Origin: a virus
Reading direction: 5' to 3' (one strand)
Virus record (IMG/VR): IMGVR_UViG_3300045988_081724
DNA: 61,211 bases
The translations under genes were made by a program, and so were the position numbers. Of this stretch, positions 1,816-45,314 are shown piece by piece. Each line of letters opens with the position of its first letter. The stretch's first letter is position 1. The notes beneath the pieces are model-generated. The model did no database searches. It was not told the DNA's origin and was given only the letters and a program-made list of their open reading frames with translations.

Positions 1816-2023
1816 TTCCTCCTTTGAGAACGCAAACAGGTTCAGACAATCCGATAGTGAACGAAAGTAGCTCTTTGTCCTTTTTTAATTCCTCTTCGTT
1901 TTTGTATTTCTTGACGACATTTCCATCCACCATGAGGACGGTCTGTCTAAACAGTCCAACTTTTGCGAACTTAATAACTTTCGGGTGGCACAAATACATA
2001 TCGCTTCCGATGATGATATTCAT
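1802..2023 (-). CDS. Hypothetical protein (73 aa)
   Basis: ORF in the co-directional gene train. Confidence 0.4.
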   Translation of the reverse strand: MNIIIGSDMYLCHPKVIKFAKVGLFRQTVLMVDGNVVKKYKNEEELKKDKELLSFTIGLSEPVCVLKGGNENE

Positions 2024-2187
2024 TTAAGTTTCCTCCTTTTACATTTCATCGCGCGCAACTTCATTAAAAATCTTTTTTCCGAATGAAGTGGCTGCATATA
2101 CCTTACAAAATACCCGGCTTCTCGAAGTAAATGTCTCACATGATTCATTGTTGGGTATTTTTTAGTTTTAAACACATTAACCACTCC

Positions 2188-2433
2188 TTACAAATATAAA
2201 TCTATGTGATGATCGTGATACTTTTCTCCGTTGTAAGCCCAATCTTTATCTACTATCTGATACCCGAAAACTTCCTTCTGCATGAGCTCTTTCACTTTTC
2301 GGATTCTGGCATGGTGTCTAGCCTCCGCTATGAACGGATCGTAATTTGCAGCGATGTATACAGTTTCTGCCTCTCCGAAAAGGTTTAACGCTTCTTCAAC
2401 GGTATTTGCGTGCATCCCCCTGTATGTAATCAT
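2188..2433 (-). CDS. Hypothetical protein (81 aa)
   Basis: ORF in the co-directional gene train. Confidence 0.4.
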   Translation of the reverse strand: MITYRGMHANTVEEALNLFGEAETVYIAANYDPFIAEARHHARIRKVKELMQKEVFGYQIVDKDWAYNGEKYHDHHIDLYL

Positions 2434-2435
2434 TT

Positions 2436-2771
2436 TTACTCCCCCGCAACACCTCTTCTTTTACACCAGTTTTTTAAAGTTGCCATATCTCCCGGATAAA
2501 CGCCAAGCAACTCACACAAGCGCCATCCCGATGTGCTTCCACTGTACGAAATCACATAGAGCCTCAAGTATCGCTCCGCCAATGTTCTGAATGTCATGTA
2601 CGTTCTGGGTGTAGACACATTAAGAAAAAAATCAATGGCTCTTTCTGCTTTCTCTACGTCAAACCCAGCAGGTAACACTCTTATTCCATTCACAAACTCA
2701 ATTTCATTCTTTTCCATCTTTACACCCTCCCGTTCGTTTAGCGTACCTCTTATAGATAGCTTGCGCCTCAT
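2436..2771 (-). CDS. Hypothetical protein (start possibly the internal Met at 2717)
   Basis: ORF 111 aa whose 5' end overlaps the HNH gene. Confidence 0.4.
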   Translation of the reverse strand: MRRKLSIRGTLNEREGVKMEKNEIEFVNGIRVLPAGFDVEKAERAIDFFLNVSTPRTYMTFRTLAERYLRLYVISYSGSTSGWRLCELLGVYPGDMATLKNWCKRRGVAGE

Positions 2772-3111
2772 TCTGATGAACGATATTCCACGTCTTGATA
2801 GGTTCAGCGTTCATCCGACAGTCAATAAAATCCTTTTGGTAAAGGTGCTTTTTCTTCCCATGAGCATACACATCATGACAATCTCGACACAGAAGGATTA
2901 TATTCTCAAGAGTGTCGCTACCATATTCCGAACGATAGCGAATGTGGTGGTGATCCATTTTCCCGATAGATTTGCCACACCACTCACACCGAGGATAACC
3001 GTCACGGCTTGCTCTTCTGTCAACCATGGCGCAAATTGCTTTATATCCGGCAGGTGTAAGCCTAATTCGATCTTCTTTTTCAATCTTCATAGCGTTCTCT
3101 CTCCCACTCAT
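2704..3111 (-). CDS. HNH endonuclease (start probably 3090)
   Basis: Motif HHHIRYRSEYGSDTLENIILLCRDCHDVYAHG. A GGGAGAGAG RBS precedes the Met at 3090. Confidence 0.75.
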   Translation of the reverse strand: MSGRENAMKIEKEDRIRLTPAGYKAICAMVDRRASRDGYPRCEWCGKSIGKMDHHHIRYRSEYGSDTLENIILLCRDCHDVYAHGKKKHLYQKDFIDCRMNAEPIKTWNIVHQNEAQAIYKRYAKRTGGCKDGKE

Positions 3112-3631
3112 CTATGAGCTTTTTCCGTTCTTGGGGTGTTTTTACATCTAAGTGCTGCCGCTCTGCTTCGTCAACTAACCACTCAAGCAGTCGGGACATT
3201 TGCTCTTTGGTGTATAAGCTCGAACCTGTATAAACTCGGATCTCCCAATAGTCCCGATGTCTGCTTTCTATGTCAACGCACCACCCGATTCCGTGGCTTT
3301 CCCATTTCCTGCGTAAAGAGTCGTAAGCAAACGGCTTGACCGCTATCGTGTCCCATACTCCGACATTTCGTATTGCCGTCCGATATACGTCCTCTTTTGT
3401 AGAATGTAGCACTTTTGCTAATGCATCACACACAACCCAGCAATAAGCATTTGCCGATAGCGATCGCTTGATTTTTAACTTTCTAGCTTCCACTATGCAC
3501 TTGTCGGATTCGAGTAGATTCTTTAGTTCATCCATCTTGTCATTTGGCGTAATCAACTCTAACGAAACTGCTGTATATCCATAGTGCCTAGCAGGAGTGA
3601 AGCAATAGCGGTTTACTTTATCCCACTTCAT
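3080..3631 (-). CDS. Hypothetical protein (183 aa)
   Basis: ORF; no motif recognised. Confidence 0.45.
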   Translation of the reverse strand: MKWDKVNRYCFTPARHYGYTAVSLELITPNDKMDELKNLLESDKCIVEARKLKIKRSLSANAYCWVVCDALAKVLHSTKEDVYRTAIRNVGVWDTIAVKPFAYDSLRRKWESHGIGWCVDIESRHRDYWEIRVYTGSSLYTKEQMSRLLEWLVDEAERQHLDVKTPQERKKLIDEWERERYED

Positions 3632-4074
3632 TTTTCATTCACGAGCATATGCCGTACTTCATCAAGAGACTGTTCTTTTACAAGTTTGTCGAGATACCAC
3701 CCTGCCTTTTGTAAATCGACAACACCGCCCTTCTCTCTGTATCGCCATGTGTATTTCATGACCTGTCCTTTCAAAAAACCTCTATACTCTTCGCATGTCA
3801 TACTAGCCTTGATAGCTTCGATACATTCGATGTTCCCTTTGTAATAGTTCGGGTTGATTTTATCCGTTTTACATTCTTCGGTTATAGCCTTAACCGTGTA
3901 CGGTGGACAATTTTTAGTAAATTCAATATACCCATCTTTTGAGCAGTTAACGTTTCTTCCGTTGTCAAATTGTACTTTGATGTAATATGACGTATCTGTC
4001 TCGTCATATCCAATTACTGTTCCTTTGCCAAACGCTTTACATTCCACTCTGGTGCCAACCTTGAACTCACTCAT
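3628..4074 (-). CDS. DUF3310-like phage protein with N-terminal KxGxxV..FGxG repeat
   Basis: C-terminus NPNYYKGNIECIEAIK...YTWRYREKGG...AGWYLDKL resembles DUF3310. The ORF 58214..59005 is a paralog. Confidence 0.5.
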   Translation of the reverse strand: MSEFKVGTRVECKAFGKGTVIGYDETDTSYYIKVQFDNGRNVNCSKDGYIEFTKNCPPYTVKAITEECKTDKINPNYYKGNIECIEAIKASMTCEEYRGFLKGQVMKYTWRYREKGGVVDLQKAGWYLDKLVKEQSLDEVRHMLVNEK

Positions 4075-4546
4075 TTTTTGCCTCCACTTCTGAAATAGTT
4101 ACGCCAACACCGCTTTCTCCGGCATATGACTTTTTAACAATCAATGTAACTACCTGCTTGTCATCTCTATACGCAATGCCGTTTAGTGCATCCAGTATAA
4201 TCTTTGCGACATTATCCACATCAGGTTTCTTGAGTGGATATTCCACTTGATTTAGCATCCGAGTTTTTTTGATATTGGACGCTGATTGCGGTGGTTCAAT
4301 ATGCGCGAAGATTGCAACAATAAGCGGAACGTCATCAGGATATCTATAGTTCCCGCATTGTTCCTGATATTGTAACTTGACTAGATTTTCATACGACACT
4401 GTTTCTTTCGGAGTATAAGCAAATCGCCCATTAAATTTAGGTCTTTGCTTCGCTTGCACTTCGCCAGCGATAAAAAACGAATTTATTTCTGACATACAAA
4501 TTCTCCATGTTCTTCTACAAATCCCTTCAACACATCCGTAGCCCAT
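4067..4546 (-). CDS. rusA: RusA-family Holliday junction resolvase (start probably 4495, MSEINSFF)
   Basis: Motif KPDVDNVAKIILDALNGIAYRDDKQV. Confidence 0.75.
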   Translation of the reverse strand: MGYGCVEGICRRTWRICMSEINSFFIAGEVQAKQRPKFNGRFAYTPKETVSYENLVKLQYQEQCGNYRYPDDVPLIVAIFAHIEPPQSASNIKKTRMLNQVEYPLKKPDVDNVAKIILDALNGIAYRDDKQVVTLIVKKSYAGESGVGVTISEVEAKNE

Positions 4547-4695
4547 GACAGTCCGCGACTAAATTCGGGGTTTATTTTTTCGCTATTTTTAGCTCCTTTT
4601 TTTAACCCATGAACAGTAGCCTCGAACAGTTCTCTCGGAATACGAATTTCGTCATCACATGTGTCATCTCTTACCTTGTCATACATTTTAATCAC
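4483..4695 (-). CDS. Hypothetical protein (70 aa)
   Basis: Short ORF. Confidence 0.35.
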   Translation of the reverse strand: MIKMYDKVRDDTCDDEIRIPRELFEATVHGLKKGAKNSEKINPEFSRGLSWATDVLKGFVEEHGEFVCQK

Positions 4696-5492
4696 CCTTT
4701 CATAATCTCTTGCATCTCATCAAACCTATGAACTGCCGAAACCTTTCTGAAACTCTCTCCTGTAAATCTGACAGGAAAACACATAGAGAAAATACGGTCG
4801 TAAATACGCTGATACCGTCTGTCGTCTGTTCGTTTCATTTCTTCAAGCGTGAGGTTCGTTGTGAGAATGAGTGGCTTTCCGCTTCTATAACGGCTATCAA
4901 TAATGTTGTAGACGTTTTCAAGCACGTAGTCCGTGCTACGCTCTGCCCCGAAGTCATCAAGGATAAGCAGTTGCGGACGGTTGAGATTTTCGATAGTATC
5001 CTCGCAAACTCCTGTATTTCCAACTTTCGACAAGATTTTAATGAGAGACGTCATGATAACAGATACGCGGCGTTCCATTAACGCATTGGCGATGGCAGCA
5101 GCAGTATAGCTTTTCCCAGTACCCACATCGCCCCAAAACAGAAGTCCTTGCCCCTTCTTTTTTAGTTCTGAGAACTTTGCAATATACCTTTCGGCTACTT
5201 TGTATCCAAATGCGTTTCCTTCGCTTTTCGTATAGTTTTGTAAGCTGGCAGTGGCAAGCCGTGCATCTAGCAATGACTCTTTTTTCAATTTTCCTACTAC
5301 TCTCATATCGTGTTCGTACTTCGTTTTACGTTCTTTTGCCGCTTCTCTTTCCCTTTCGCAACGACACATAACCGGCATAACACGATTTACCATTTGCTTC
5401 GTGCCGTCCATTGCCGGAAACGCAACGACTCTTTCAATGTATTCGCCGCATTGGGGGCATCGTGCTAACTCCTGCATGTTTATCATCTCCAA
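4692..5492 (-). CDS. DnaC/IstB-like helicase-loader ATPase
   Basis: Walker A GDVGTGKSYTA and Walker B LLILDD. Confidence 0.8.
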   Translation of the reverse strand: MEMINMQELARCPQCGEYIERVVAFPAMDGTKQMVNRVMPVMCRCEREREAAKERKTKYEHDMRVVGKLKKESLLDARLATASLQNYTKSEGNAFGYKVAERYIAKFSELKKKGQGLLFWGDVGTGKSYTAAAIANALMERRVSVIMTSLIKILSKVGNTGVCEDTIENLNRPQLLILDDFGAERSTDYVLENVYNIIDSRYRSGKPLILTTNLTLEEMKRTDDRRYQRIYDRIFSMCFPVRFTGESFRKVSAVHRFDEMQEIMKG

Positions 5493-6187
5493 TCACTAAA
5501 GGGATCGTTTTCATTTGTTTCCACAATTTGAGGTTGAGATTCTTGCTTCGATAAATAATCAGAGAATGGAGTGGATGCTGATAAAAACGTTTTGGGGTGC
5601 TTTATGTACGTCTGCTCCGTGTTAGTTTTTCTTACATAAGCGCAATAATTCTTGGCAGATTCAATAAGCTCATTGGGCGTCCAACCATCCGAAATTCGAG
5701 CTTTGTAACATTTATAAGCATCCGCTTTTCCAATCTTGCGAGGATATTCTTTCCAAAATTCCTCAAACTCTTTTGGATATTCATTTCGCTTTTTCTTTGG
5801 CGGTGCTTCGGTTTCCTTCTGCTTTTCACGAAAACGTCTTACATATTCTCGATTTTTAGCAAGTTCATGCTCACGCTTATACCACCACTTTTGCCAAATA
5901 GCCCAGTCATGTAGTCGAATTGGTTCCACCTTGTCGAGATAGCCAACCTCGATTAACTCTTCGATAACCCTTTCGGGTTCAAGCAGTTTAGACAGTCCGA
6001 CATTTAACACATCTGCTACATCCTCTTTGCTTGCATCTGTTTCTCCGGCTTCATTAGCATTGTGCATCCCCCACAACCAAAGGCGTACAAGTATACCTAA
6101 GGCTTCGTTTTGACTGCAACCTAACGCTTTAGCTAGTCGTCGCAATTTTGCCCCCATGACCGTTTCGTGTACCGAGATCCATACCAT
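5483..6187 (-). CDS. Putative phage replisome organiser / replication initiation protein
   Basis: N-terminal ...LGILVRLWLWGMH... is replisome-organiser-like. It sits between the recT/exo module and the dnaC-like loader. Confidence 0.5.
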   Translation of the reverse strand: MVWISVHETVMGAKLRRLAKALGCSQNEALGILVRLWLWGMHNANEAGETDASKEDVADVLNVGLSKLLEPERVIEELIEVGYLDKVEPIRLHDWAIWQKWWYKREHELAKNREYVRRFREKQKETEAPPKKKRNEYPKEFEEFWKEYPRKIGKADAYKCYKARISDGWTPNELIESAKNYCAYVRKTNTEQTYIKHPKTFLSASTPFSDYLSKQESQPQIVETNENDPFSDWR

Positions 6188-6195
6188 TTCGTCTC

Positions 6196-6993
6196 CTATT
6201 GTTTATTGATAATGTCCTGAATGCCGATGACGTGTGAAAGTTTTTTGTAGTGTCTACAGCATGCACACGCTCCACATTTACGCGGCATGACATTTCCTTT
6301 TTTTACATCAAGGACACGTTCGAGATTGGCTTTAACGCTTTCCAGTGCATCATCGAGATAATTCTGCGTTATCTGAATAATTTGAATATCCGGCTCATAC
6401 TCCTTTGATGCCGCAGCGATATAAAACGGTAACTTTTTGCCAGTATTCTTTTCTACAACCGCTTGATAAATCGCTCCTTGAATGTCGTAGCCCCAATATC
6501 TAATAAAGTCCATGTAGCCAAACTGTCGCGAATAATACATTTCACGTATTGACTGCATTACCTTTAAATCAACAATGCAGACACCGGGAAAATAACTATC
6601 CATTTTTATTTTCCACGGCGTTCCGAAGAGATCCGCCGTCATAATAACCTGCTTATCCCCAGCAAGATATTTCAAGAAATACTCATCTTTGTTAATTCGG
6701 TTAATAACAGACTCCGCTTTCATAAATTCCGCTTTTAGCGTGCCGTCTTTCTTAAAAATTTCAGGATGCTCCGCTTTGAACGGTTCGAGGGTTCCTTCAT
6801 AATAATGGTCAACGTACGAACCAATCATCATTGCATTGTTCATGCCTTCCGACCACGTCCCATTCATTTTTTTCATGGCGCAGAACTCGCAACCTGCATG
6901 ACCGGGTGTACCAACAAAATCCTTATACTGCGATACGCTCATATATTCTTTATTTGCTTCGCTGCTATAGTACGTGCTTTCTTCCAGTTTCAA
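6196..6993 (-). CDS. PD-(D/E)XK exonuclease with C-terminal Cys cluster (Cas4/YqaJ-like), partner of RecT
   Basis: IVDLK motif and C-terminal CGACACC; immediately downstream of recT. Confidence 0.65.
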   Translation of the reverse strand: MKLEESTYYSSEANKEYMSVSQYKDFVGTPGHAGCEFCAMKKMNGTWSEGMNNAMMIGSYVDHYYEGTLEPFKAEHPEIFKKDGTLKAEFMKAESVINRINKDEYFLKYLAGDKQVIMTADLFGTPWKIKMDSYFPGVCIVDLKVMQSIREMYYSRQFGYMDFIRYWGYDIQGAIYQAVVEKNTGKKLPFYIAAASKEYEPDIQIIQITQNYLDDALESVKANLERVLDVKKGNVMPRKCGACACCRHYKKLSHVIGIQDIINKQ

Positions 6994-7856
6994 TTTCTAA
7001 GCTCCTCCATTTCCACTTCTGTAGTCTTATTTTTTGTTTCTTTGTAAGGTATTTGATTGAACTGCGGTTCTGTTACTTCGTTTTCAAGAGTAAAATTATC
7101 AGGCTGATTGTCGCCGTAGCTTCCATTTCCGTTCGCATCGAATGTTTTTTGATCTGCTTCAATGGCACGCTGCATACTAACGGAAAGGACTCCCCACCGG
7201 GAAAGAAGCAGCTTCAAAACCGTTTTCTTTGCCATCGTATCAAAGTTAATGCTCCATTGACTTAACTTTGTTCTTTCGTACAAATCTTTACGATAAGCAC
7301 TAGAATACTTTTTGGCGTGTTCAGTTATTTCCGCTTTACTCATATACAGTTCTTTCACAAATCCACTTTTTAACCGAAACCACGCATAGTACCCAACAAC
7401 TTTATTAAAATCCTTGTTTTTTCTGTCCTTACAAGAGGAAAAGTTTTCGGTAAAAATGCACTCTCCTGTGATTGGGTTGTACATTTCCAGTTCATCCGCA
7501 TAGACTTCCGCGCAATTCATTTTTTCGTAAGCGCCTGTTCTGATAGCTAACTGAATATAGCCTTTGTACATCATCTGAAACTGGCAGATGTCGTTATACG
7601 GAACAAGAGCGGAAAAACCGAGATTAGAATCTACAGGTAAATCGATAGATGCCGCTACCATTGCCGCCGCCATAATCGAATTAGGATTACAGTGTTTAAG
7701 TCTGCCGTTGTTTGCTACTGCGTTAATGATAGAAATCATAAACTGCGGTGCTTTTCCTCCAAGCGCCATGCTAAACCTAGATTTTACATCGTCAGTTTTC
7801 ATGAGTTTTTTAACTTCGGCTAAAGCGTCATTATTTGCAACAATTTTTGTATTCAT
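6990..7856 (-). CDS. recT: RecT-family single-strand annealing protein
   Basis: 288 aa with the ...DTMAKKTVLKLL... motif characteristic of RecT. Confidence 0.7.
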   Translation of the reverse strand: MNTKIVANNDALAEVKKLMKTDDVKSRFSMALGGKAPQFMISIINAVANNGRLKHCNPNSIMAAAMVAASIDLPVDSNLGFSALVPYNDICQFQMMYKGYIQLAIRTGAYEKMNCAEVYADELEMYNPITGECIFTENFSSCKDRKNKDFNKVVGYYAWFRLKSGFVKELYMSKAEITEHAKKYSSAYRKDLYERTKLSQWSINFDTMAKKTVLKLLLSRWGVLSVSMQRAIEADQKTFDANGNGSYGDNQPDNFTLENEVTEPQFNQIPYKETKNKTTEVEMEELRN

Positions 7857-8086
7857 TCTTTTCTCTCCCTTGCGACCTCGAACTCTTCACCTGTGATTTC
7901 CATAAACTCATCAATGGATAAATCTTGCACACAATCTTCGCAAACGTACCCTTTGATTCCATTTATATATTTATCTCCATCACAAATAGGTGCTCCGCAA
8001 ATGCAGCATTCATAAATCCCTTTGGGCTCGGGTTCATATGGACACCCGGGGAAATGTTCAAAAACTCCTCCACAAATTTCACACAT
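7853..8086 (-). CDS. Cys-rich small protein (putative zinc ribbon)
   Basis: Pairs CEICGG, CCICGAPIC and CEDC. Confidence 0.4.
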   Translation of the reverse strand: MCEICGGVFEHFPGCPYEPEPKGIYECCICGAPICDGDKYINGIKGYVCEDCVQDLSIDEFMEITGEEFEVARERKE

Positions 8087-8160
8087 GCTAGCCCCTTTCT
8101 GACTTCTCCGTATAGTTGCAACTACTATAACGGCAAAGTCTGATTTCTGTTGTAAAAAAA

Positions 8161-8877
8161 TTAGAGATATGCTCCTTCAAGCTCTCTCGTGATCTCTTTC
8201 TTCCTGTTTAAAATGTATCGGCTATATTCGGTTGAATGGATTCCCATTTGCCAAAGTCTTGTTGCTTCTGACAATCCCATGTTGTAAGACATAAGAAGAT
8301 AGTTTTCGTCGATACAATGCTTTTGTAATTCCGCAAGATAATCAATACCAACCAAAATGTTATCTACTGGATAATTTTCAATGTCAGCGTGCATGCGAGA
8401 AATACGCTCTTGATGCCAATCTGGAACAATCTGCATGTATCCAATGGCACCAGCATGATTATTTCTTGCTTCGGCATGGTATCCACTTTCTGCTTCGATA
8501 ATCGCAAGCACTAATGGATATGAGACATTATAACCGTGGCAAGCATACCATGTTCGTTTCTGTGTCCTAACATCCATCTTGCCACCTTCAGCCGCAAATT
8601 CAACCGGAATCTTGTACTCCTTAAACCCTTCTTCCTGAATATGTGCTTCCGCAATCATTTTAGGGTTTAAGTCCGTAGGTTCAGGCGTATCTTTGTTAGC
8701 CCAGACACAAGAAACGCCTACACCTACCGTAACTACTAAAGCAGTTGCCTTAATAACATTCTTCCACTTGATCCTTGTCCTTTTCTTCAAGATGTTTTCC
8801 TCCTGCCATAATGGAAATGTCCAATCCGGAATATGTTTCATACGCTTTTTCAAATTCTTCCCGGTTATTGAACCCAA
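8161..8877 (-). CDS. Lytic transglycosylase (SLT domain) with N-terminal membrane anchor
   Basis: Motif AIIEAESGYHAEARNNHAGAIGYMQI; TM segment ATALVVTVGVGVSCVWA. Confidence 0.75.
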   Translation of the reverse strand: MGSITGKNLKKRMKHIPDWTFPLWQEENILKKRTRIKWKNVIKATALVVTVGVGVSCVWANKDTPEPTDLNPKMIAEAHIQEEGFKEYKIPVEFAAEGGKMDVRTQKRTWYACHGYNVSYPLVLAIIEAESGYHAEARNNHAGAIGYMQIVPDWHQERISRMHADIENYPVDNILVGIDYLAELQKHCIDENYLLMSYNMGLSEATRLWQMGIHSTEYSRYILNRKKEITRELEGAYL

Positions 8878-8932
8878 ACTCTTCTTTCAGGTACGCTTCC
8901 ATTCGGGCTACTACTTCATCCACGATAATCAT
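8750..8932 (-). CDS. Hypothetical 60-aa ORF overlapping the SLT 5' end out of frame (possibly spurious)
   Basis: ORF only. Confidence 0.2.
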   Translation of the reverse strand: MIIVDEVVARMEAYLKEEFGFNNREEFEKAYETYSGLDISIMAGGKHLEEKDKDQVEECY

Positions 8933-9128
8933 CCTCCGTCCAGCTTACATTTAAAACGTCGGAGATCATTCGGTTCGTTGGTGGTGCAATGAGCTTACCA
9001 CTCACTACTAACGATACATACGGTCTACTGCGTCCAATTTTTTTTGCAAGCTCTGCTACCGTCATATTTCTTTCTAACATCGCAATTTTCACGCGAACTG
9101 ACCACGATAATTTCTTGGCTTTTTCCAT
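8916..9128 (-). CDS. Cro-like HTH (XRE family) regulator
   Basis: HTH LERNMTVAELAKKIGRSRPYVSLVVSG; divergent from the CI-like gene. Confidence 0.6.
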   Translation of the reverse strand: MEKAKKLSWSVRVKIAMLERNMTVAELAKKIGRSRPYVSLVVSGKLIAPPTNRMISDVLNVSWTEDDYRG

Positions 9129-9341
9129 AATTTCCCTCCTTTCGTAACGGAACTCTCAACTTTTGTACAGAACTGTGCTACAATACTTGTATACAAATGT
9201 TATGTAAGAATTATATATAATTCTTCGCTACATATGTATATCTATATATTGTCTTTTATTTTGTACAATCATATTATATACGAAAGTAACGTAAAAGTCA
9301 ACTACAATAAACGTATTTTTCCAACTTTAAGGAGGATCACC
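9129..9341. promoter_or_regulatory. Lysogeny switch intergenic region (divergent promoters, candidate operators)
   Basis: AT-rich 213 bp between divergent HTH genes. Contains the perfect 20-bp palindrome AAGAATTATATATAATTCTT (about 9205-9226) and two TTGTACA motifs. Confidence 0.55.
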
Positions 9342-9701
9342 ATGTCACCTGTGGTTCAGCGCATTTTAGATTTAATGTATGAACATCATGTAACAGCCGC
9401 AAAATTAACTTCTGATCTCGGAATTTCCCATACCGCCGTTACGGATTGGAAAAAGGGACGTGGATCACCTAAGGTTACTACTATCGCTGACATTTCGCGA
9501 TATTTTAACGTATCTACTGACTACATTATTACAGGCGCGGAATCCAAAAACTTTGCCATTCCATTTGCTACAAAACTGGATAAAATGTTAATCAGTAAAT
9601 TTCACAAGCTCCCCGAAGAAATTCAGCAGGAAGTTTTAAGTTATATTGACTTTAAAATAGCTCAAACTATTGATGCCACCAGTCGCAAGGTATCATTATA
9701 A
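9342..9701 (+). CDS. CI-like HTH (XRE family) repressor
   Basis: ATG at 9342 preceded by AAGGAGGA; HTH VTAAKLTSDLGISHTAVTDWKKG. Confidence 0.7.
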   Translation: MSPVVQRILDLMYEHHVTAAKLTSDLGISHTAVTDWKKGRGSPKVTTIADISRYFNVSTDYIITGAESKNFAIPFATKLDKMLISKFHKLPEEIQQEVLSYIDFKIAQTIDATSRKVSL

Positions 9702-9731: not shown

Positions 9732-11420
9732 ATGACTAGTGCCCGTGTTGCCATTTATATCCGTGTTTCGACAACACATCAGGTTGATAAAGACTCACTT
9801 CCTATGCAGCGTCAGGATTTAATTGCGTATGCAAAGCTCATGCTTCACACTACCGACTGTGTAATCTTTGAGGATGCCGGATACTCAGGTAAAAACATGG
9901 ATCGCCCACGCTTTCAATCCATGATGAAGCAAATTAGGCAAGGGCTTTTTACTCATGTCCTAGTTTGGAAAATTGACCGCATTAGTCGTAACTTGCTTGA
10001 CTTTGCCAGCATGTACGAGGAATTAAAATCTTTAGGTGTTACGTTCGTTTCCAAAAATGAGCAATTCGATACCTCTACCGCCATGGGCGAAGCAATGCTA
10101 AAAATTATTCTTGTATTCGCTGAACTTGAAAGAAACATGACAAGTGAGCGAGTAACGGCAACAATGATTTCAAGGGCTTCGAACGGACAATGGAACGGCG
10201 GGCGCGTCCCTTTTGGCTATAGCTATGATTCAGAAAAGAAGGAATTTTATATTAACGAAAAAGAAGCGCCCATAGTACGCTTAATCCATGATACCTACGA
10301 ACAAAATAGTTCTTTGCTTAACCTTACTCGCATTTTAAATGACAGTGGTTATAAAACTCGTGCAGGAAATGAATGGTCGCCTATTTCCGTACGAATTATC
10401 CTAAAAAATTTCTGGTATACCGGATGCTATCAATATAATCGGCTCAAAGATGGATGTCGCCAAAAGGAAAAGGATCAGTCTGAATGGGTAACGATACCAA
10501 ACCACCATCCTGCATTGATCTCTTTAAAGCAAAAGGAACGAATTGTAGAAATGCTTCGCTCAAATTACAAGCTCATTGCAGCAAACAACATTTATTACAC
10601 TTCAAACAACGTTCATGTCTTTGGTGGTTTAATTACCTGTGCCTTTTGTGGTAGACGCTACATTGCAACCACAGATACGAAAAAAGGATGGAAGATGGGG
10701 CGCTATGGATGTCCGACAAGACGGTACAGTAAAACAAAATGCTTAAATAAATCCATTTCCGACCTAACCCTTGGTGATTTTGTTTTTAACTACTTTGTTA
10801 ATCTTTTAAAAGTACAGAAGCACGCTAAAGAAATTACAACGACAGAGGAATTGCAACGTCAGCTATTATCTGGATATACCTTTAGTTCTGTAAAAGGATT
10901 ATCGCCTCAAAGTTTATTAGATACCCTGCGTCTGATCCATACGCTTAACCCCAGTGAAAAGATATACGGTAAAACTAAAGCTATAAAAAAAATTGCAAAG
11001 CCTGACAAGCAACTATTTACACTACGCGCAAAGCAAAGCAAGCTAAAAAGGGCATTAGATCGCTTGACTACGCTATACCTTTACAGTGAATCGTCTATGT
11101 CAGAAGCAGATTTTGTTGCTAAAAAAGCTGAAATCACAGATAACATAGCTAAAACGGAAGCGGAAATTTCAGAGCTTGTAAAAACTGACATACACTCGGA
11201 TATTACTGATTCTGAATTTTTGAGAAAAGCTAGTGAATTTGTTATTTCCCAGCAGCTTGTGTCCAGGAACTACATTAGCTACGAACGTTTAGCACGCACT
11301 GTAGACGTAAATATAACGCGCGAATTTATTGTAGGAACTATCGAACAAATCACCGTTCGAGACGGGCATATAGACTCCATTCTTTTCCGCAACGGTTTAT
11401 ACCACAAATTTATTTATTAG
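9732..11420 (+). CDS. int: Large serine recombinase (phage integrase)
   Basis: N-terminal resolvase catalytic domain VAIYIRVSTTHQ; 562 aa with a Cys-rich zinc-ribbon region. Confidence 0.9.
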   Translation: MTSARVAIYIRVSTTHQVDKDSLPMQRQDLIAYAKLMLHTTDCVIFEDAGYSGKNMDRPRFQSMMKQIRQGLFTHVLVWKIDRISRNLLDFASMYEELKSLGVTFVSKNEQFDTSTAMGEAMLKIILVFAELERNMTSERVTATMISRASNGQWNGGRVPFGYSYDSEKKEFYINEKEAPIVRLIHDTYEQNSSLLNLTRILNDSGYKTRAGNEWSPISVRIILKNFWYTGCYQYNRLKDGCRQKEKDQSEWVTIPNHHPALISLKQKERIVEMLRSNYKLIAANNIYYTSNNVHVFGGLITCAFCGRRYIATTDTKKGWKMGRYGCPTRRYSKTKCLNKSISDLTLGDFVFNYFVNLLKVQKHAKEITTTEELQRQLLSGYTFSSVKGLSPQSLLDTLRLIHTLNPSEKIYGKTKAIKKIAKPDKQLFTLRAKQSKLKRALDRLTTLYLYSESSMSEADFVAKKAEITDNIAKTEAEISELVKTDIHSDITDSEFLRKASEFVISQQLVSRNYISYERLARTVDVNITREFIVGTIEQITVRDGHIDSILFRNGLYHKFIY

Positions 11421-11437
11421 TTTGCAGGAGGTTTATT

Positions 11438-11980
11438 TTGATTAGACGCTCCAATTATCACTATAAAATAGCAATTACTATTGTTGCAGTTCTTTTCGCA
11501 GGGATGTGTTTTTCCGGGTGTAAAGATAAGCAAGACGCTCCCCCATCTGCGTCGGTATCCAGTCAGCAAGAGAAGGTTTCTGATTCGACAAAAGCCAGTG
11601 AAAAATCAGTGCTTGCTAAACTTCTAAGCACCACAGATAGCTCGGACACTACAAAAAAAGAATATATAGAAACAACGGCTTCCGCTATGATGGACGACTT
11701 GAATACTAACGCACTGCGCGCGAAGAAAAAATATAATAACCGCAATGTTGCTATTAAAGACGCTAAAATTGACGTTATTGACAGTGACGGCGATTATTTT
11801 ACTGTATGTTCGCCCGACGTAGATGTGCAAATTATTCCAATTCTAATAAACATACAATCGGAGAAGCAAAGAGAACAGTTATCCAATATGGATATTGGAC
11901 AGGTTATAACCGTCTATGGAACTGTCACACACGTCGGGGAGTCCATGGGATATGCCATCGATCTTAACAACTTCGAATAG
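11438..11980 (+). CDS. Lipoprotein (TTG start; candidate lysogenic-conversion or exclusion gene)
   Basis: Signal peptide plus lipobox ...LFAGMCFSGC; RBS GCAGGAGG; co-transcribed with int. Confidence 0.55.
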   Translation: MIRRSNYHYKIAITIVAVLFAGMCFSGCKDKQDAPPSASVSSQQEKVSDSTKASEKSVLAKLLSTTDSSDTTKKEYIETTASAMMDDLNTNALRAKKKYNNRNVAIKDAKIDVIDSDGDYFTVCSPDVDVQIIPILINIQSEKQREQLSNMDIGQVITVYGTVTHVGESMGYAIDLNNFE

Positions 11981-11995
11981 CAGATAATAAAAAAA

Positions 11996-12030
11996 CACCG
12001 GGTTTTATTGCCCGGTGCTTTTTATTTTAT
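11996..12030. terminator. Rho-independent terminator at the convergence of the int operon and the minus-strand genes (bidirectional)
   Basis: Hairpin CACCGGG-N8-CCCGGTG flanked by A-run and T-run. Confidence 0.7.
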
Positions 12031-12365
12031 AGAATTACAATGGATAATGCATCGCCAGGTTCGGAAGAAAAGCTCATATCAATCAGAACCTTTTCATCGA
12101 TGTGTTTATCATAAGTTGACCAAAGGTATGAAGTGACCTTTGTCATAACACAGGAGTGGAAGCTCAGTTCATTTTCTTCATACGCATCAATATCATCTTT
12201 AATTCTATCCCATTCATAAACATCTCGGGCTTCTGTGAAAAGAATTTTTGCCCCCTTTGGTAGGCTTTCAAGAATCCTGCTGACGCTTTCATCTCTTCGA
12301 CTTGGGCGGTTGGTTTTTGATGCTAACACACGAGCTAACTCTACATTCATTTCTTCTTTAGTCAT
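12027..12365 (-). CDS. Hypothetical protein (112 aa), moron region
   Basis: ORF. Confidence 0.45.
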   Translation of the reverse strand: MTKEEMNVELARVLASKTNRPSRRDESVSRILESLPKGAKILFTEARDVYEWDRIKDDIDAYEENELSFHSCVMTKVTSYLWSTYDKHIDEKVLIDMSFSSEPGDALSIVIL

Positions 12366-12441
12366 TTTAGGTTTCCTCCTGTTTACTAAATTTTCTTTAG
12401 CCCCGAAGTGGGAAAACCCTTTCCCACTTTACCTGCTTTAT

Positions 12442-12783
12442 CTATTTCATTTTTACAAGATCAGATACTTCCCAACATGGTGCATTTAGCTTTTCTTCCA
12501 AGGGTGGAAGTTTTTCAACTTCATATGCTTCAATTTCGATCTCGCACGTCATTTCTTCATTAAACACATAACATTTTCCATGCTTTTTGTAACTGCATCC
12601 CATTTCCATGCTTCCTTCGACAAACTTCTCAATTTCATCAAAGGACTTTTTACATCCCATCTCCTTCATTGCACACTCAAATGCCGTTTTGGCATTTCCT
12701 TTGAGTGTGTAAAGGAAGTGCATCTCCAAAATATGTTTTTCGCCTTTAGTATCTCTTTTTACGGTAATCTCATAAACTTTCAT
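12442..12783 (-). CDS. Hypothetical protein (113 aa) driven by promoter-cassette copy 1
   Basis: ORF directly downstream of the conserved leader and RBS. Confidence 0.5.
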   Translation of the reverse strand: MKVYEITVKRDTKGEKHILEMHFLYTLKGNAKTAFECAMKEMGCKKSFDEIEKFVEGSMEMGCSYKKHGKCYVFNEEMTCEIEIEAYEVEKLPPLEEKLNAPCWEVSDLVKMK

Positions 12784-12870
12784 CTTTGTTTCCTCCTGTT
12801 ATTTACTAACTATTTCCTTTGTTGTATATATATTACTACATTTTGCCTGATTTGTAAAGTGATTTATTTG
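12784..12870 (-). promoter_or_regulatory. Conserved promoter+leader cassette, copy 1 (-35 TTTACA, 17 bp, -10 TAATAT, about 40-nt leader ending AGGAGGAAACAAAG-ATG)
   Basis: On the minus strand -35 is 12853-12858 and -10 is 12830-12835. Near-identical copies at 50679-50770, 55285-55350 and 60762-60850. Confidence 0.7.
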
Positions 12871-12879
12871 CAAAAACAT

Positions 12880-12930
12880 CAAAAAAATAAAGGCATCTCA
12901 TTCTTTGAGATGCCTAGTACCTTTTTATTT
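12880..12930. terminator. Bidirectional rho-independent terminator
   Basis: Hairpin AGGCATCTC-N7-GAGATGCCT with T-runs on both strands. Confidence 0.65.
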
Positions 12931-12965
12931 TAGTTTCAAAGGAATATGCTTACTTGACATAACCC

Positions 12966-13247
12966 CTAACACCTTTGGGAATTCTTTAATTCCTCTTTGA
13001 TGGTTTTGATTTTTGCATATGCATCACGAATTGCTTCTCTAGCATTGTTTACCTTTTCCGCTGCATTAGGGATTTTCATAAACTGTCCTTCTATCGCAAA
13101 TTCGATAATCATACGCTCCCATTTTCTTTCTCGTTCGCGAAGTACATCTATCCATGCGTATAACCTATGGGTTTCTTCGGGAGTCCCGAATTTTCGGGCT
13201 AAACAGTATTCAAAAAGTGCCTTTTCTTTTTCATTAAGAAATTTCAT
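12966..13247 (-). CDS. Hypothetical protein (93 aa)
   Basis: ORF behind the degenerate promoter cassette. Confidence 0.45.
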   Translation of the reverse strand: MKFLNEKEKALFEYCLARKFGTPEETHRLYAWIDVLRERERKWERMIIEFAIEGQFMKIPNAAEKVNNAREAIRDAYAKIKTIKEELKNSQRC

Positions 13248-13345
13248 GTTGTGCCTCCTGTTAACTTTTCAAAAAACTTGTCGGGTACTTTTTACCCTTC
13301 CACTATATTATACTACATTCTCCTTCTTTTGTAAAGTTATATATT
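13248..13345 (-). promoter_or_regulatory. Degenerate copy of the promoter+leader cassette (-35 TTTACA, 17 bp, -10 TATAAT)
   Basis: Shares GTGCCTCCTGTTA, ATTATACTACATT and TTGTAAAGT blocks with the other copies. Confidence 0.5.
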
Positions 13346-13356
13346 TACATAAATAG

Positions 13357-13392
13357 TTAAAAATAAAAGGCATCTCGCTATTAGAGATGCCT
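13357..13392. terminator. Rho-independent terminator (same stem family as 12891-12915)
   Basis: Hairpin AGGCATCTC-N7-GAGATGCCT; T-run on the minus strand. Confidence 0.6.
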
Positions 13393-13398
13393 GGCTAT

Positions 13399-13857
13399 TC
13401 ATTTGTCAATTTGTATTAACTCCTCAGGTGGCTTACCTTTATTTCCGGCAATCAGTAGCGAAAGCATGAGATTTGCTGCATAGTTAAACCCAGCCTTAAA
13501 TCCGCACAATTCGTACTCTGCGGCAGCATCGATCATGAGTGAATATAACTGATCCGATTCTTCCGGTATTGCTCGAAAAAGCTCATTCTTAAATTCTTTC
13601 GTTAAACTAATGACATCAGGGCTATATCTTTCTTTGGGCGTGCTATTGTTTACATAATCACAAAAATAATCATTCGCCGTTCGGACACCTTCCATTCTTC
13701 CTTCTCTCCTTTTAAAAATCAATAATAGCTCTAAAAAACTTTCCTCCTTTCTTACTCTCAAAACAGTTAGTGTGCTATGTTTTTCTTGCATTATACTCTT
13801 ACTGGTTAACATTTGCAAGAAACAATTTTTTAAGATGTGTATACTGTCATTTCTCAA
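13399..13857 (-). CDS. Hypothetical protein (start possibly internal, MEGVRTANDYF at about 13695)
   Basis: ORF. Confidence 0.4.
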   Translation of the reverse strand: MRNDSIHILKNCFLQMLTSKSIMQEKHSTLTVLRVRKEESFLELLLIFKRREGRMEGVRTANDYFCDYVNNSTPKERYSPDVISLTKEFKNELFRAIPEESDQLYSLMIDAAAEYELCGFKAGFNYAANLMLSLLIAGNKGKPPEELIQIDK

Positions 13858-13894
13858 TTTACATATATTATTATATATATAATATAATAACTGT

Positions 13895-14216
13895 ATATAC
13901 CCTTACAGTAAGGTTTACTGTAAGCCTTACACAATGCACCAATTATGTGTATTTATACAAAATCAGTTAATAACAAGGCGTATAACTTGTATATTGCGTA
14001 TTTTTTGACATACTTTTATTTATGGTTCAGCCGTTGCAAAATTGCTGTAAGATTTTGTAAGTCTTACTGTAATGCTTACTGTAAGCCTTACACTCATACT
14101 TACTGTAAGCATCGCATTGTATAATTGTAATATTTCCAACAAAAACGAATACATATTTATACAATGTAAGTCTTACATGACCCCTTACAGTAAACCTTAC
14201 TGTAAGCCTTACATAA
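13895..14216. repeat. Array of 8 or more copies of the palindromic 11-mer CTTAC(T/A)GTAAG, including three copies of the 18-mer TTACTGTAAGCCTTACA; non-coding
   Basis: Read directly: clusters at about 13900-13935, 14044-14110 and 14165-14215. No ORF over 60 aa on the coding strand. Confidence 0.8.
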
Positions 14217-14261
14217 AAAACGTCATTATAATTTTCAATTCCCATAAATAAGATTTATCGA

Positions 14262-14297
14262 ACATATAAAAAACTCCCATCTAAATTTAGGTGGGAG
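14262..14297. terminator. Rho-independent terminator downstream of the secreted-protein gene
   Basis: Hairpin CTCCCATCTAAATTTAGGTGGGAG with T-run on the minus strand. Confidence 0.6.
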
Positions 14298-14320
14298 TTA
14301 TAACGCATTTTAACAAATTG

Positions 14321-14695
14321 CTACTTCGCATATCGTTCCCATGTTTCAGGAAATGCGGAGTTCTTTGCGCCCTTCTTCCATGCACAATAGTCATCGGCAA
14401 TTAAGTAAGGAATATCATCTTGATAAAACGTGAATGAGGGTGCTGACACAACTGGAACATGAGGACATGTATCTGTCGAGCGCATCAAAGATGCTTCTTT
14501 TCCAGCCACAGAATAGGACGTAATACCTCCATCATGCGGACATTTTATCGTCATCACTTTTTTAAAATATTCAAATTGAATTTCATAACCTTTAAAAAGA
14601 GGTACGACATGCCCATTTTTTTCCACTTGGAAAGCAGATGCAGTAGAACTCATCAAAAGCAAAGCACAAGCAACACATAATGTCTTTACCTTCAT
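14321..14695 (-). CDS. Secreted protein with signal peptide (start at MKVKTL; the ORF extends to 14731)
   Basis: Perfect RBS GAAGGAGGATAAA before the ATG at 14695; signal MKVKTLCVACALLLMSSTASA. Confidence 0.55.
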   Translation of the reverse strand: MKVKTLCVACALLLMSSTASAFQVEKNGHVVPLFKGYEIQFEYFKKVMTIKCPHDGGITSYSVAGKEASLMRSTDTCPHVPVVSAPSFTFYQDDIPYLIADDYCAWKKGAKNSAFPETWERYAK

Positions 14696-14760
14696 TTTAT
14701 CCTCCTTCATAACGTTAGCCGTATATTTCATTTCCTCTTCATTCTACCTTACTTTGGGCA

Positions 14761-14790
14761 ATAAAAAAAGAGGGCTAGTTTCCTAGCCCT
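14761..14790. terminator. Rho-independent terminator right after the frame-A spanin-like ORF
   Basis: Hairpin AGGGCTAGTTTCCTAGCCCT with T-run on the minus strand. Confidence 0.6.
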
Positions 14791-14795
14791 TAAAA

Positions 14796-15266
14796 TCAAT
14801 TCGTTGCTTCGTAAATTGCGAGTGATCCGGCAACAAAGCACCATACATTTCTTTGCCGCTTAGCGAGATTGCGTTGATGTTGCAACGTCTTTACCTGTTG
14901 CTCTAACACTGTCAAGGATTCCTCCAATTTTGCGATTGTCGCTTTTGCATTCGTCAATGAGACGTTTACATTCCTCAAGTTCTGCCTTGCTTCTGTCAGC
15001 AGATTCTTTGCTTCGTTCAACTGCTCCAATGCCTCGCTCAATGCTTTCTCCTGCTCCGTTGAGTTTTGAGTCAGCGCGTTCAGCTTCGTTTCGAGCGTTA
15101 TCAATCTGCTTTCCTTCGTCTTGTACATATTCTCTAGCTCGGTCAACTGTGTTTCCGTTATCGTATACGTTTGTTCCTGCGCATAAGAAGTAGGCGATGA
15201 CAAGCACGCCGATAAGAATAAACACAAGATCAAGCAAATTATAAACCTTGCGAGATTTCCACCCAT
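14796..15266 (-). CDS. Frame A: lipoprotein (lipobox LSAC) with long coiled-coil and hydrophobic C-terminus; spanin-like (o- or u-spanin candidate)
   Basis: ATG lies 4 nt inside the frame-B ATG and shares RBS AAGGAAAGGTG. Q/L/E heptad-rich. The terminator follows its stop directly. Confidence 0.4.
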   Translation of the reverse strand: MGGNLARFIICLILCLFLSACLSSPTSYAQEQTYTITETQLTELENMYKTKESRLITLETKLNALTQNSTEQEKALSEALEQLNEAKNLLTEARQNLRNVNVSLTNAKATIAKLEESLTVLEQQVKTLQHQRNLAKRQRNVWCFVAGSLAIYEATN

Positions 15267-42615: not shown

Positions 42616-42616
42616 T

Positions 42617-45080: not shown

Positions 45081-45244
45081 GACCTGCCCTGTTTTCCGAT
45101 ATCAAAGAAAATCATTGGTTTAGCAGCAAAAAACATAAGATAAAAGTATTAGGCACAACATATCGACTTATGCTTTGTTACAAGGCAGGTGTTAAGTTGT
45201 AATGCGGTTTCACATGGATGCTAATGTATGCTAGACCGCGCTAG

Positions 45245-45314
45245 GGTTAGGAATGGATTTGAACCATTATTTGGCGATTTCAGGTCGCCCGTTTTACCAT
45301 TAAACTACCTAACC
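45245..45314 (-). tRNA. tRNA (70 nt, no encoded CCA); anticodon loop CCUGAAA, apparent anticodon UGA with non-canonical C33 and a short variable arm; identity uncertain
   Basis: Manual cloverleaf: acceptor GGTTAGG/CCTAACC, D-arm GTTT-AATGGTA-AAAC, anticodon stem GGCGA/TCGCC, T-arm AATGG-TTCAAAT-CCATT. Confidence 0.5.

What the first reader, a model, noticed from the sequence alone, without database searches (positions are those of the whole stretch)
13895..14216. Non-coding array of CTTAC(T/A)GTAAG palindromes (at least 8 copies, including three copies of TTACTGTAAGCCTTACA)
A roughly 320-bp stretch without a credible ORF sits between two terminator-bounded moron genes. It carries three clusters of an 11-bp palindromic motif. 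The spacing is irregular, so it is not CRISPR-like. Such iterated palindromes are typical of dimeric DNA-binding protein sites. Possible roles are a replication origin or iteron set for the replisome organiser, a partition or centromere-like site for the ParB-like protein, or a repressor-operator array.
Basis: seen in the sequence. Interest (0 to 1): 0.7.

Follow-up and report, generated by a model that had tools for sequence, protein, structure and literature searches.

The report
Phage replication-origin iteron array
The palindrome array is real and is most likely the replication origin of a temperate Dialister phage, made of binding sites for the phage's own replication-initiator protein next to the most easily melted DNA in the genome; this is a known kind of element in an unusual place.

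Summary
Window 13902-14213 holds 18 GTAAG/CTTAC pentamers in a strict 6-bp register, about twelve 12-bp units in three clusters. Nowhere else in this circular 61-kb phage does a 320-bp stretch hold more than 3. Each unit is a 9-bp palindrome (TTAC-W-GTAA) plus a 3-nt linker. Related phages carry a similar three-cluster array plus (TA)n tract, all within a few kb of the integrase gene, but with switched motifs: TTAC-A-GTAA, GGAA-T-TTCC, GGAC-W-GTCC. In relative L128 the remote array's motif recurs, with the same 12-bp period, inside the replisome-organiser gene. Other organiser homologues also carry internal 12-bp iterons of these motif classes. That is the classical position for an origin. The (TA)n tract beside cluster A is the least stable 40-mer duplex in the genome. 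The window's organiser gene has no internal repeats, and TTACNGTAA is at chance level elsewhere. The array is therefore most likely the origin, resembling SPP1 oriR. Partition is disfavoured: the phage integrates, with attP at about 50867, no ParA/ParM/TubZ was found, and the ParB-like protein is DpdB-like. A CI/Cro operator role, inverton, attP and structured RNA are also disfavoured. It is a new member of a known kind, of moderate interest. Binding and origin activity are untested.

The parts
13857..13900 (.). (TA)n-rich tract, the proposed DNA unwinding element (DUE)
   Evidence: It is 91% A+T. 13859-13898 is the least stable 40-mer duplex of the whole genome: -34.6 kcal/mol, against a mean of -53.0 (sd 3.8) and a next-lowest value of -38.7. 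Its length varies among close relatives, with offsets of 90-116 bp. An equivalent tract flanks the arrays of L097, L098 and L128.
13902..13931 (.). Iteron cluster A: CTTACAGTAAGG TTTACTGTAAGC CTTACA (2.5 units of 12 bp)
13932..14041 (.). A-B spacer, 70% A+T
   Evidence: The distance from the first site of A to the first site of B is 145 bp in all 15 haplotypes.
14042..14116 (.). Iteron cluster B, about 6 units, some degenerate (GTAAT, CTCAT, CATCGCA)
   Evidence: In variant L081 the same cluster is an unbroken run of 12 pentamers and is one 12-bp unit longer.
14117..14163 (.). B-C spacer, 82% A+T, bracketed by the inverted pair CATTGTATAA / TTATACAATG
14164..14213 (.). Iteron cluster C, about 4 units. 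Positions 14184-14206 are the exact reverse complement of 13902-13924.
   Evidence: (I6)
14272..14299 (-). Intrinsic terminator of the 124-aa secreted-protein gene; right boundary of the element
   Evidence: Stem plus T-run on the minus strand (I11). Compensatory C14281T/G14294A change in relatives.
13790..13818 (-). Promoter-like site TTGCAA-17-TATAAT for the 98-aa ORFan gene, reading away from the DUE. This is context; transcription from here might help unwinding (inference).
5483..6187 (-). Replisome organiser / replication initiation protein (234 aa), the proposed iteron-binding protein
   Evidence: PHROG replication initiation protein, replisome organizer and DnaD-like helicase loader families, E=5e-23 to 4e-13. 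The gene has no internal repeats. Homologues in relatives carry 12-bp iterons inside the gene. The predicted N-domain is helical with a beta-hairpin, and its best (non-significant) fold matches are winged-helix proteins including the DnaD N-domain.
4692..5492 (-). DnaC/DnaI-type helicase loader, partner of the organiser
   Evidence: Pfam IstB_IS21/AAA; NCBIfam PRK08116 at 272 bits, and DnaI/DnaC

Best explanation
The array is the iteron set of the phage's replication origin. Each 12-bp unit is a 9-bp palindrome (TTAC-W-GTAA) plus a 3-nt linker (GSC). Each unit is proposed to bind a dimer of the N-terminal domain of the phage's DnaD-like replisome organiser (5483-6187). Cooperative filling of the three clusters (about 12 units over 310 bp) would build a nucleoprotein complex. 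That complex would melt the adjoining (TA)n tract (13857-13900). The DnaC/DnaI-like loader (4692-5492) would then bring in the host helicase. In most relatives of this initiator family the iterons lie inside the organiser gene. In this lineage they have moved to a non-coding slot among the moron genes near the integrase, about 8 kb from the organiser gene, like oriR of Bacillus phage SPP1. Shown here: the repeat structure, its uniqueness in the genome, similar three-cluster arrays with switched motifs near the integrase in relatives, the same motifs inside organiser genes of relatives, and the instability of the flanking tract. Inferred: that the organiser is the binder, and that replication starts here.
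For: (1) The array is unique and strictly phased.
(2) Relatives found through integrase homologues of 58-60% identity carry a three-cluster array with a (TA)n tract and a terminator, between the integrase gene and the lysis genes. The motif differs: L097 has ATTACAGTAATM, and L098/L100 have GGAATTTCCATG. L128 has GTCCATAGGACA next to its integrase gene, with the (TA)n tract between clusters 2 and 3 rather than at one end.
(3) In L128/L129 the same GGAC-W-GTCC units, at the same 12-bp period, also lie inside the organiser gene, in the linker-coding part. One unit, GTCCACCGGACA, is identical in both places.
(4) The organiser genes of L126, L127, L130, L135, L196, L207 and the 288-aa group carry internal 11-12-bp iterons. 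Their classes are GGAx-N-xTCC, GTAAC/TTAC-N-GTAA and GGAC-G-GTCC. The L130 unit is close to the L098 remote unit.
(5) The organisers of the window, L097 and L100 are short (234-240 aa) and lack internal repeats. TTACNGTAA occurs only twice outside the array, which is chance level.
(6) L099/L100 are 89-99% identical to the window in many early and lysis proteins. Yet their organiser is only 50% identical and the motif is switched. The more distant L097 keeps 60% identity and the TTAC-N-GTAA core. N-domain identity roughly follows motif class.
(7) The flanking tract is the least stable 40-mer duplex in the genome.
(8) The centre and linker positions vary in 11 of 23 columns, against 19 of 115 for the pentamer positions. 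Degenerate units revert to consensus in relatives.
(9) Precedent: SPP1 oriR is a non-coding set of repeats plus an AT-rich DUE. It is bound by the organiser gp38, lies 12-13 kb from oriL, and sits among moron genes between transcription signals (PMC6316719, PMC3485210).
Against: No binding or origin activity has been measured. The window's own organiser gene has no TTAC-N-GTAA site, so the organiser link rests on relatives. The organiser N-domain is fairly conserved across motif classes (45-69% identity). No single specificity residue held up: the H/N idea failed when T-type organisers were also found with GGAC iterons. Cro also diverges in parallel with the motif switch, at 41% versus 57% identity. 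Many organiser-bearing phages show no array within 10 kb. The array position in L128 differs from the other lineages: it lies upstream of int, with the TA tract between clusters 2 and 3. There is no GC-skew inflection at the array. Fold matches for the organiser model are not significant, with best E=0.19.
Confidence: 0.6

Rival explanations
1. The array binds the organiser but is not the start site. It could be a replication-fork barrier that triggers the switch from theta to rolling-circle replication, as proposed for SPP1 oriR. Or it could be an iteron sink that titrates or handcuffs the initiator, like incA of plasmid P1. In that case initiation happens at an unrecognised site.
For: The SPP1 model has G38P on oriR stalling the fork, followed by processing by a Holliday-junction resolvase, an exonuclease, a single-strand annealing protein and SSB. 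The window encodes the same set: RusA 4067-4546, PDDEXK exonuclease 6196-6993, RecT 6990-7856 and SSB 56005-56502. L128 has both internal iterons and a remote array, so there the remote one may be auxiliary.
Against: In the window no other organiser-type site exists. The most meltable tract of the genome adjoins the array. Together these fit an initiation site.
Confidence: 0.15
2. The array is an operator set for an unidentified transcription factor, from the phage or from the Dialister host, that controls the neighbouring lysogenic-conversion (moron) genes. For example, it could act through looping between the three clusters.
For: The array lies between a terminator and the promoter of the 98-aa gene. 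Short palindromes are typical operators. GTAAG-S-CTTAC equals the central 11 bp of the IdeR/DtxR iron box GTWAGSCTWAC (from my own knowledge), and 15 of the 19 box positions match.
Against: The neighbouring genes differ between lineages. In L097 the array has no gene on the (TA)n side, and in L098/L100 it sits between other morons. The (TA)n tract varies by 26 bp, so the phase to the promoter is not kept. No strong promoter lies inside the array. A sigma-54-like match at 14025-14040 is mutated in relatives. The motif switches with the phage lineage, which argues against a host factor. The motif classes match organiser-gene iterons.
Confidence: 0.1
3. The array is a centromere-like partition site, of the parC/tubC/parS type, for an episomal prophage state.
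For: Contiguous 11-12-bp units in two or three clusters resemble the parC site of plasmid R1 and the tubC site of pBtoxis (from my own knowledge). Variant L081 has lost the integrase but keeps the array.
Against: Integrated copies with host flanks exist, and the junction is at window 50867. No ParA, ParM or TubZ was found among the early, replication, lysogeny and moron proteins scanned. The ParB_N protein is below the family cut-offs, has only the N-domain and is DpdB-like by context.
Confidence: 0.04
4. The array is the packaging recognition site (pac) for the small terminase.
For: A tripartite repeat layout is known for the pac sites of SPP1 and P1 (from my own knowledge). The head genes suggest headful packaging: a Mu_F-like protein and a Terminase_6N large subunit.
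Against: The array is 26 kb from terS (40571-41065). The motif classes match organiser-gene iterons, not terminase genes.
Confidence: 0.04
5. The array is an invertible promoter flanked by the 23-bp inverted repeats 13902-13924 and 14184-14206, or it encodes a structured non-coding RNA.
For: The 23-nt inverted repeat is perfect, with 259 bp between the arms (I6).
Against: The inner segment has the same orientation in every assembly examined, covering 15 haplotypes. L066 and L081 have direct rather than inverted copies. Rfam finds nothing. The complementarity follows trivially from the palindromic units.
Confidence: 0.02

Closest known systems
oriR (and oriL) of Bacillus subtilis phage SPP1, bound by replisome organiser gp38/G38P
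   Same: Both are repeats plus an AT-rich DUE. Both are non-coding, bracketed by transcription signals and set among moron genes, about 8-13 kb from the organiser gene. Both phages encode an organiser, a loader, a RusA-type resolvase, an exonuclease, a single-strand annealing protein and SSB.
   Different: SPP1 also has oriL inside gene 38, while the window has no internal set. The units here are contiguous 12-bp units with 9-bp palindromes in three clusters. This phage is a temperate, integrating Dialister phage that uses a DnaC/DnaI-type loader. Homology of the organiser to G38P was not tested.
Lambda-type origin: iterons inside the initiator (O) gene next to an AT-rich region
   Same: Dyad-symmetric iterons are bound by the N-terminal domain of the initiator. 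In relatives (L126-L130, L135, L196-L215) they lie in the linker-coding part of the initiator gene, as in lambda (the lambda layout is from my own knowledge).
   Different: In the window the iterons lie outside the gene. The units are 12 bp and abutting, not about 19 bp and spaced. The initiator family is different.
Plasmid centromeres parC (R1, ParR) and tubC (pBtoxis, TubR)
   Same: Arrays of abutting 11-12-bp units in two or more clusters, which would be coated by a small dimeric DNA-binding protein (from my own knowledge).
   Different: There is no partition NTPase, the phage integrates, and the motif classes match organiser-gene iterons.
IdeR/DtxR iron box (TWAGGTWAGSCTWACCTWA)
   Same: The central 11 bp GTWAGSCTWAC equals GTAAG-S-CTTAC (from my own knowledge).
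   Different: Four of the 19 positions do not match. The half-site arrangement alternates rather than running in two direct pairs. The motif changes with the phage lineage.

Membership tests
Iteron-type phage replication origin (SPP1 oriL/oriR, lambda ori) | Several repeated binding sites (iterons) clustered in a few hundred bp | tested here: met
   About 12 units of 12 bp and 18 pentamers in 13902-14213. The array is unique in the genome.
Iteron-type phage replication origin (SPP1 oriL/oriR, lambda ori) | Adjacent A+T-rich, easily melted DNA unwinding element | tested here: met
   13859-13898 is the least stable 40-mer in 61 kb. An equivalent tract is present in L097, L098 and L128.
Iteron-type phage replication origin (SPP1 oriL/oriR, lambda ori) | The phage encodes an origin-binding initiator and a helicase loader | tested here: met
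   Organiser 5483-6187 (PHROG). Loader 4692-5492.
Iteron-type phage replication origin (SPP1 oriL/oriR, lambda ori) | Iteron sequence is tied to the initiator, through sites in its gene or co-variation | tested here: inconclusive
   Met in relatives. L128 has the same units inside the organiser gene and in the remote array. L126, L127, L130, L135 and L196-L215 have internal iterons of the same design. The organiser is the outlier when the motif switches. The window's own gene has no site, and no specificity residue could be fixed.
Iteron-type phage replication origin (SPP1 oriL/oriR, lambda ori) | Initiator binds the repeats and replication starts there | not testable with these tools
   Needs EMSA or footprinting, an origin-cloning assay, or marker-frequency analysis.
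Partition centromere (parS/parC/tubC) | Cognate partition NTPase (ParA/ParM/TubZ) and adaptor encoded nearby | tested here: not met
   None was found among the early, replication, lysogeny and moron proteins scanned with Pfam or PHROGs. The ParB_N protein has only the N-domain and scores 43 bits against a cut-off of 58. It sits next to a DpdA-like protein and QueC/D/E/F homologues.
Partition centromere (parS/parC/tubC) | The element is maintained extrachromosomally | tested here: not met
   Integrated copies lie next to the Dialister tgt-yajC-secDF genes, with the junction at 50867.
CI/Cro immunity operators | The same motif lies between the cI and cro genes | tested here: not met
   No TTACNGTAA or GTAAGNCTTAC in 8916-9342. 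That region has TTGTAYACAA-like sites instead. The same holds for GGAA.TTCC in L099.
Invertible promoter (inverton) | Both orientations of the segment between the inverted repeats are seen | tested here: not met
   One orientation only in all assemblies. Read-level data were not available.
Serine-integrase attP | Homology to the integrated prophage breaks at the site | tested here: not met
   The break is at 50867, inside a 96-bp imperfect palindrome at 50829-50924, which is 36.8 kb from the array.

The most novel reading that the evidence does not exclude
The array is not a start site. It is a dedicated organiser-binding 'control locus' placed beside the lysogeny module. By sequestering or handcuffing the initiator, or by blocking forks, it would decide between silent prophage and runaway lytic replication, or time the theta-to-sigma switch. 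Its switching specificity would define replication incompatibility groups among co-resident Dialister prophages.
Probability: 0.15. Interest if true: 0.6.

Novelty: new member of a known kind. Interest (0 to 1): 0.38.

Why it matters
It would place the replication origin of an abundant human-gut Dialister prophage group. These phages are uncultured and have no experimental data. It also provides a natural series of homologous arrays whose 9-bp palindrome changes in two-base modules: TT-AC-W-GT-AA, GG-AC-W-GT-CC and GG-AA-T-TT-CC. These arrays are paired with homologous initiator N-domains, which makes the initiator-iteron recognition code directly testable. The series shows an origin moving out of the initiator gene into the moron region, with an intermediate (L128) that has both. 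It also corrects public gene calls that place a 72-aa ORF in the array.

Tried and rejected
- INPHARED phage BLAST of 13300-14800 found no match.
- Rfam found nothing credible.
- A literature search for the motif strings returned only primers and the like.
- The genome-contig scan for two palindromes within 30 bp gave 38 loci, all unrelated by BLAST to the window. L013 is the end of a T7-like podovirus with a coincidental 12-bp tandem repeat.
- An apparent clustering of contig ends at the array turned out to be a storage-chunk boundary (L006 and L012 are contiguous) and was dropped.
- Contigs of 84-172 kb were first taken as integrated prophages. The 172-kb one proved to be a tandem concatemer, and the others were not checked.
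- The 98-aa protein was considered as binder. It is an ORFan, it is absent next to the L097 and L128 arrays, and it has no family hits.
- A sigma-54 promoter at 14025-14040 is not conserved.
- The extended -10 I first read at about 14118 is a plain TATAAT with no -35.
- A single H/N specificity residue in the organiser failed once more organisers were seen.
- L216 and L217, with short organisers, showed no array in the DNA held. L116 and L134 have GTAA-rich cI-cro operators, not arrays.
- Fold search of the organiser model found no significant match.
- PDB sequence search found nothing.

Full report
**The window.** The 61,211-base window is a complete circular contig; its first and last 61 bases are identical. 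It is a temperate phage with nearly all genes on the minus strand. The map is as follows.
- 272-8877(-): early and replication genes. These include dUTPase, NinB, RusA, a DnaC/DnaI-like loader (4692-5492), a replisome organiser (5483-6187), a PDDEXK exonuclease, RecT and an SLT-domain protein.
- 8916-9128(-): Cro. 9342-9701(+): CI. 9732-11420(+): a large serine recombinase. 11438-11980(+): a lipoprotein.
- 12027-14731(-): small moron genes, each with its own promoter and terminator.
- From 15391 upward: lysis, tail, head and terminase genes.
- 41-45 kb: a queuosine/7-deazaguanine gene cluster. 45.2-46.9 kb: five tRNA genes.
- 47-61 kb: further early genes, including SSB.

- CTTACWGTAAG with at most one mismatch occurs 7 times, all within 13902-14206, against 0.78 expected. 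The 17-mer occurs three times exactly.
- The region holds 18 GTAAG/CTTAC pentamers. No other 320-bp stretch has more than 3.
- The pentamers sit in a strict 6-bp register with alternating orientation, and TRF reports period 12.
- The array is the most repetitive spot of the genome at k=6, 7 and 8. The replication module has no comparable repeats.
- The region is non-coding. The 72-aa ORF that public gene callers place there is broken by 1-nt indels in relatives.

**Close relatives.** Viral and metagenome contigs at 92-100% identity give 15 array haplotypes.
- The A-to-B distance never changes.
- Cluster B gains exactly one 12-bp unit in variant L081. There all three clusters are closer to consensus, and cluster B is an unbroken run of 12 pentamers.
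- The (TA)n tract left of cluster A varies by up to 26 bp.
- The centre and linker positions vary in 11 of 23 columns. The pentamer positions vary in 19 of 115, and the spacers in 33 of 174.
- Six of the 11 centre and linker changes are G<->C or A<->T. That pattern is expected from flipping of palindrome centres, or from gene conversion between inverted units.
- The inner segment is never inverted.

**What the array is not.**
- *Not attP.* Four integrated copies lose homology to the window exactly at 50867, inside a 96-bp imperfect palindrome (50829-50924). They continue into host tgt, yajC, a 5-formyltetrahydrofolate cyclo-ligase gene, secD and secF. The exact Tgt protein is found in Dialister sp. 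genomes.
- *Partition is not needed.* The phage integrates. No ParA, ParM or TubZ was found among the early, replication, lysogeny and moron proteins scanned. The 'ParB-like' protein (44536-45042) has only the N-domain and scores below the family cut-offs. It lies beside a DpdA-like protein (read from the ORF, no family hit) and QueC/D/E/F and FolE homologues.
- *Not a CI/Cro operator set.* The cI-cro intergenic region holds other palindromes and no TTACNGTAA.
- *Not a structured RNA.* Rfam finds nothing.
- *Not an operator bound by the neighbouring 98-aa protein.* That protein is a lineage-specific ORFan.

**The decisive step: more distant relatives.**
- Integrase homologues of 58-60% identity led to L097 and to L098/L099. 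An organiser alignment led to L100 and L128.
- L097, L098/L100 and L128 each carry a three-cluster array with a (TA)n-rich tract and a terminator, near the integrase gene. The unit differs: ATTACAGTAATM in L097, GGAATTTCCATG in L098/L100, and GTCCATAGGACA in L128.
- In L128 the layout is not identical. The array lies directly upstream of int, and the TA-rich tract lies between clusters 2 and 3.
- Read this way, every unit is a 9-bp palindrome X4-N-X4' plus 3 nt. The window and L128 share the inner AC-W-GT. L128 and L098 share the outer GG..CC.
- The neighbouring genes differ. In L097 the array lies directly after int. In L098/L100 it lies between the homologue of the 124-aa gene and the 136-aa gene. 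So the array is an independent cis element, not the control region of one moron.

**The link to the organiser.**
- In L128/L129 the same GGAC-W-GTCC units, at the same 12-bp period, also lie inside the organiser gene, just after the N-terminal domain. One unit is identical in both places.
- The organiser genes of L126, L127 and L130 hold internal GGAx-N-xTCC iterons. The L130 unit is close to the L098 remote unit.
- L135 holds GTAAC / TTAC-N-GTAA units. L196, L207 and a widespread 288-aa group hold GGAC-G-GTCC units.
- The organisers of the window, L097 and L100 are short and have no internal repeats.
- L099/L100 are 89-99% identical to the window in many early and lysis proteins. Their organiser is only 50% identical and the motif is switched. 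The overall more distant L097 keeps 60% identity and the TTAC-N-GTAA core.
- Only Cro shows the same pattern, and Cro's own region lacks the motif.
- The N-terminal 105 residues are the shared module of organisers whose C-termini differ. Their similarity roughly follows motif class.
- An AlphaFold model gives a confident helical N-domain with a beta-hairpin. Its best fold matches are winged-helix proteins, including the DnaD N-domain, but none is significant.
- A single-residue specificity rule that I tried did not survive more data.

**The flanking tract.** 13859-13898 is the least stable 40-mer duplex of the genome, more than four standard deviations below the mean. Iterons plus such a tract are the standard anatomy of an origin.

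**The closest described case.** This is SPP1. It has oriL inside the organiser gene 38 and oriR in a non-coding stretch among moron genes. Both are repeats plus an AT-rich DUE bound by gp38. gp38 on oriR is proposed to stall the fork and trigger the switch to rolling-circle replication, through a RusA-type resolvase, an exonuclease, a single-strand annealing protein and SSB (PMC6316719, PMC3485210). The window encodes that same set.

**Verdict.**
- The array is most likely the phage origin, a remote-only version of the oriL/oriR arrangement (about 0.6).
- A purely regulatory or fork-barrier role for the same organiser-bound array is the main rival (about 0.15).
- An operator set for another factor (about 0.1), a centromere, pac, an inverton or an RNA are less likely.
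- Binding and origin activity are inferred, not shown.
- This is a new member of a known kind, of moderate interest. Its main value is the natural specificity series.

Noticed in passing
window 50829-50924: Probable attP, a 96-bp imperfect palindrome. Four integrated copies (L084, L086, L087, L088) lose homology exactly at 50867 and continue into host tgt-yajC-secDF. This is about 20 kb from the only recombinase gene found (serine integrase, 9732-11420), an unusual separation. The other junction was not seen.
   Followed up: partly
L084/L086-L088 host flanks: The host of the integrated relatives is Dialister sp. The exact Tgt protein sequence occurs in NCBI Dialister genomes.
   Followed up: partly
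window 41093-45042 (-): A 7-deazaguanine/queuosine-type DNA-modification cluster directly upstream of the terminase genes. It comprises GTP cyclohydrolase I, QueE-, QueD-, QueC- and QueF-like genes, a DpdA/TGT-like protein and a ParB_N (DpdB-like) protein. The prophage integrates next to the host tgt gene.
   Followed up: partly
window 45244-46905 (-): Five phage-borne tRNA genes: Ser-tga twice, Met, Gln and Ser-gct.
   Followed up: no
window 12784-12870, 50679-50765, 55285-55350, 60762-60850 (-): Four nearly invariant copies of an ~85-nt cassette with a promoter (TTTACA-17-TAATAT), a 5' UTR and an RBS. They drive four unrelated small genes. This suggests a shared regulatory module or a recombination hotspot.
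   Followed up: partly
L081 (ERZ27952972 k141_273782): A natural deletion variant lacking window 9867-12761: most of the integrase gene, the lipoprotein gene and two moron genes. It keeps the array, which is more perfect and 12 bp longer.
   Followed up: partly
L067/L083 (HANS18-1 scaffold_71, 172 kb): This long public contig of the phage is a tandem concatemer. The same genes recur 58.8 kb apart. It is not a prophage in host DNA.
   Followed up: yes
window 14027-14245 (-): Public assemblies annotate a 72-aa ORF inside the array. It lacks an RBS and is frame-shifted in relatives, so it is a spurious call.
   Followed up: yes
window 13902-13924 vs 14184-14206: The 3-nt centre of the 23-bp palindrome (GGT/ACC) swaps between clusters A and C among relatives. 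The window has A=GGT and C=ACC, L065 has the reverse, and L066 has GGT in both. Many changes at centre positions are complement transversions.
   Followed up: partly
L126, L127, L130, L133 organiser linker regions: A second repeat, (CCGTCA)n/(CCGTAA)n, lies directly downstream of the internal iterons. It encodes SPSP-type linker peptides. It may be a second DNA element or just low-complexity coding sequence.
   Followed up: no
window 12891-12915 and 13368-13392: Near-identical terminator hairpins (AGGCATCTC...GAGATGCCT) end two successive moron genes.
   Followed up: no
L134 3030-3340: In an unrelated immunity region, TTACCGTAA/TTACGGTAA palindromes sit between cI and cro as apparent operators. 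The 9-bp motif alone is therefore not diagnostic of organiser sites.
   Followed up: no
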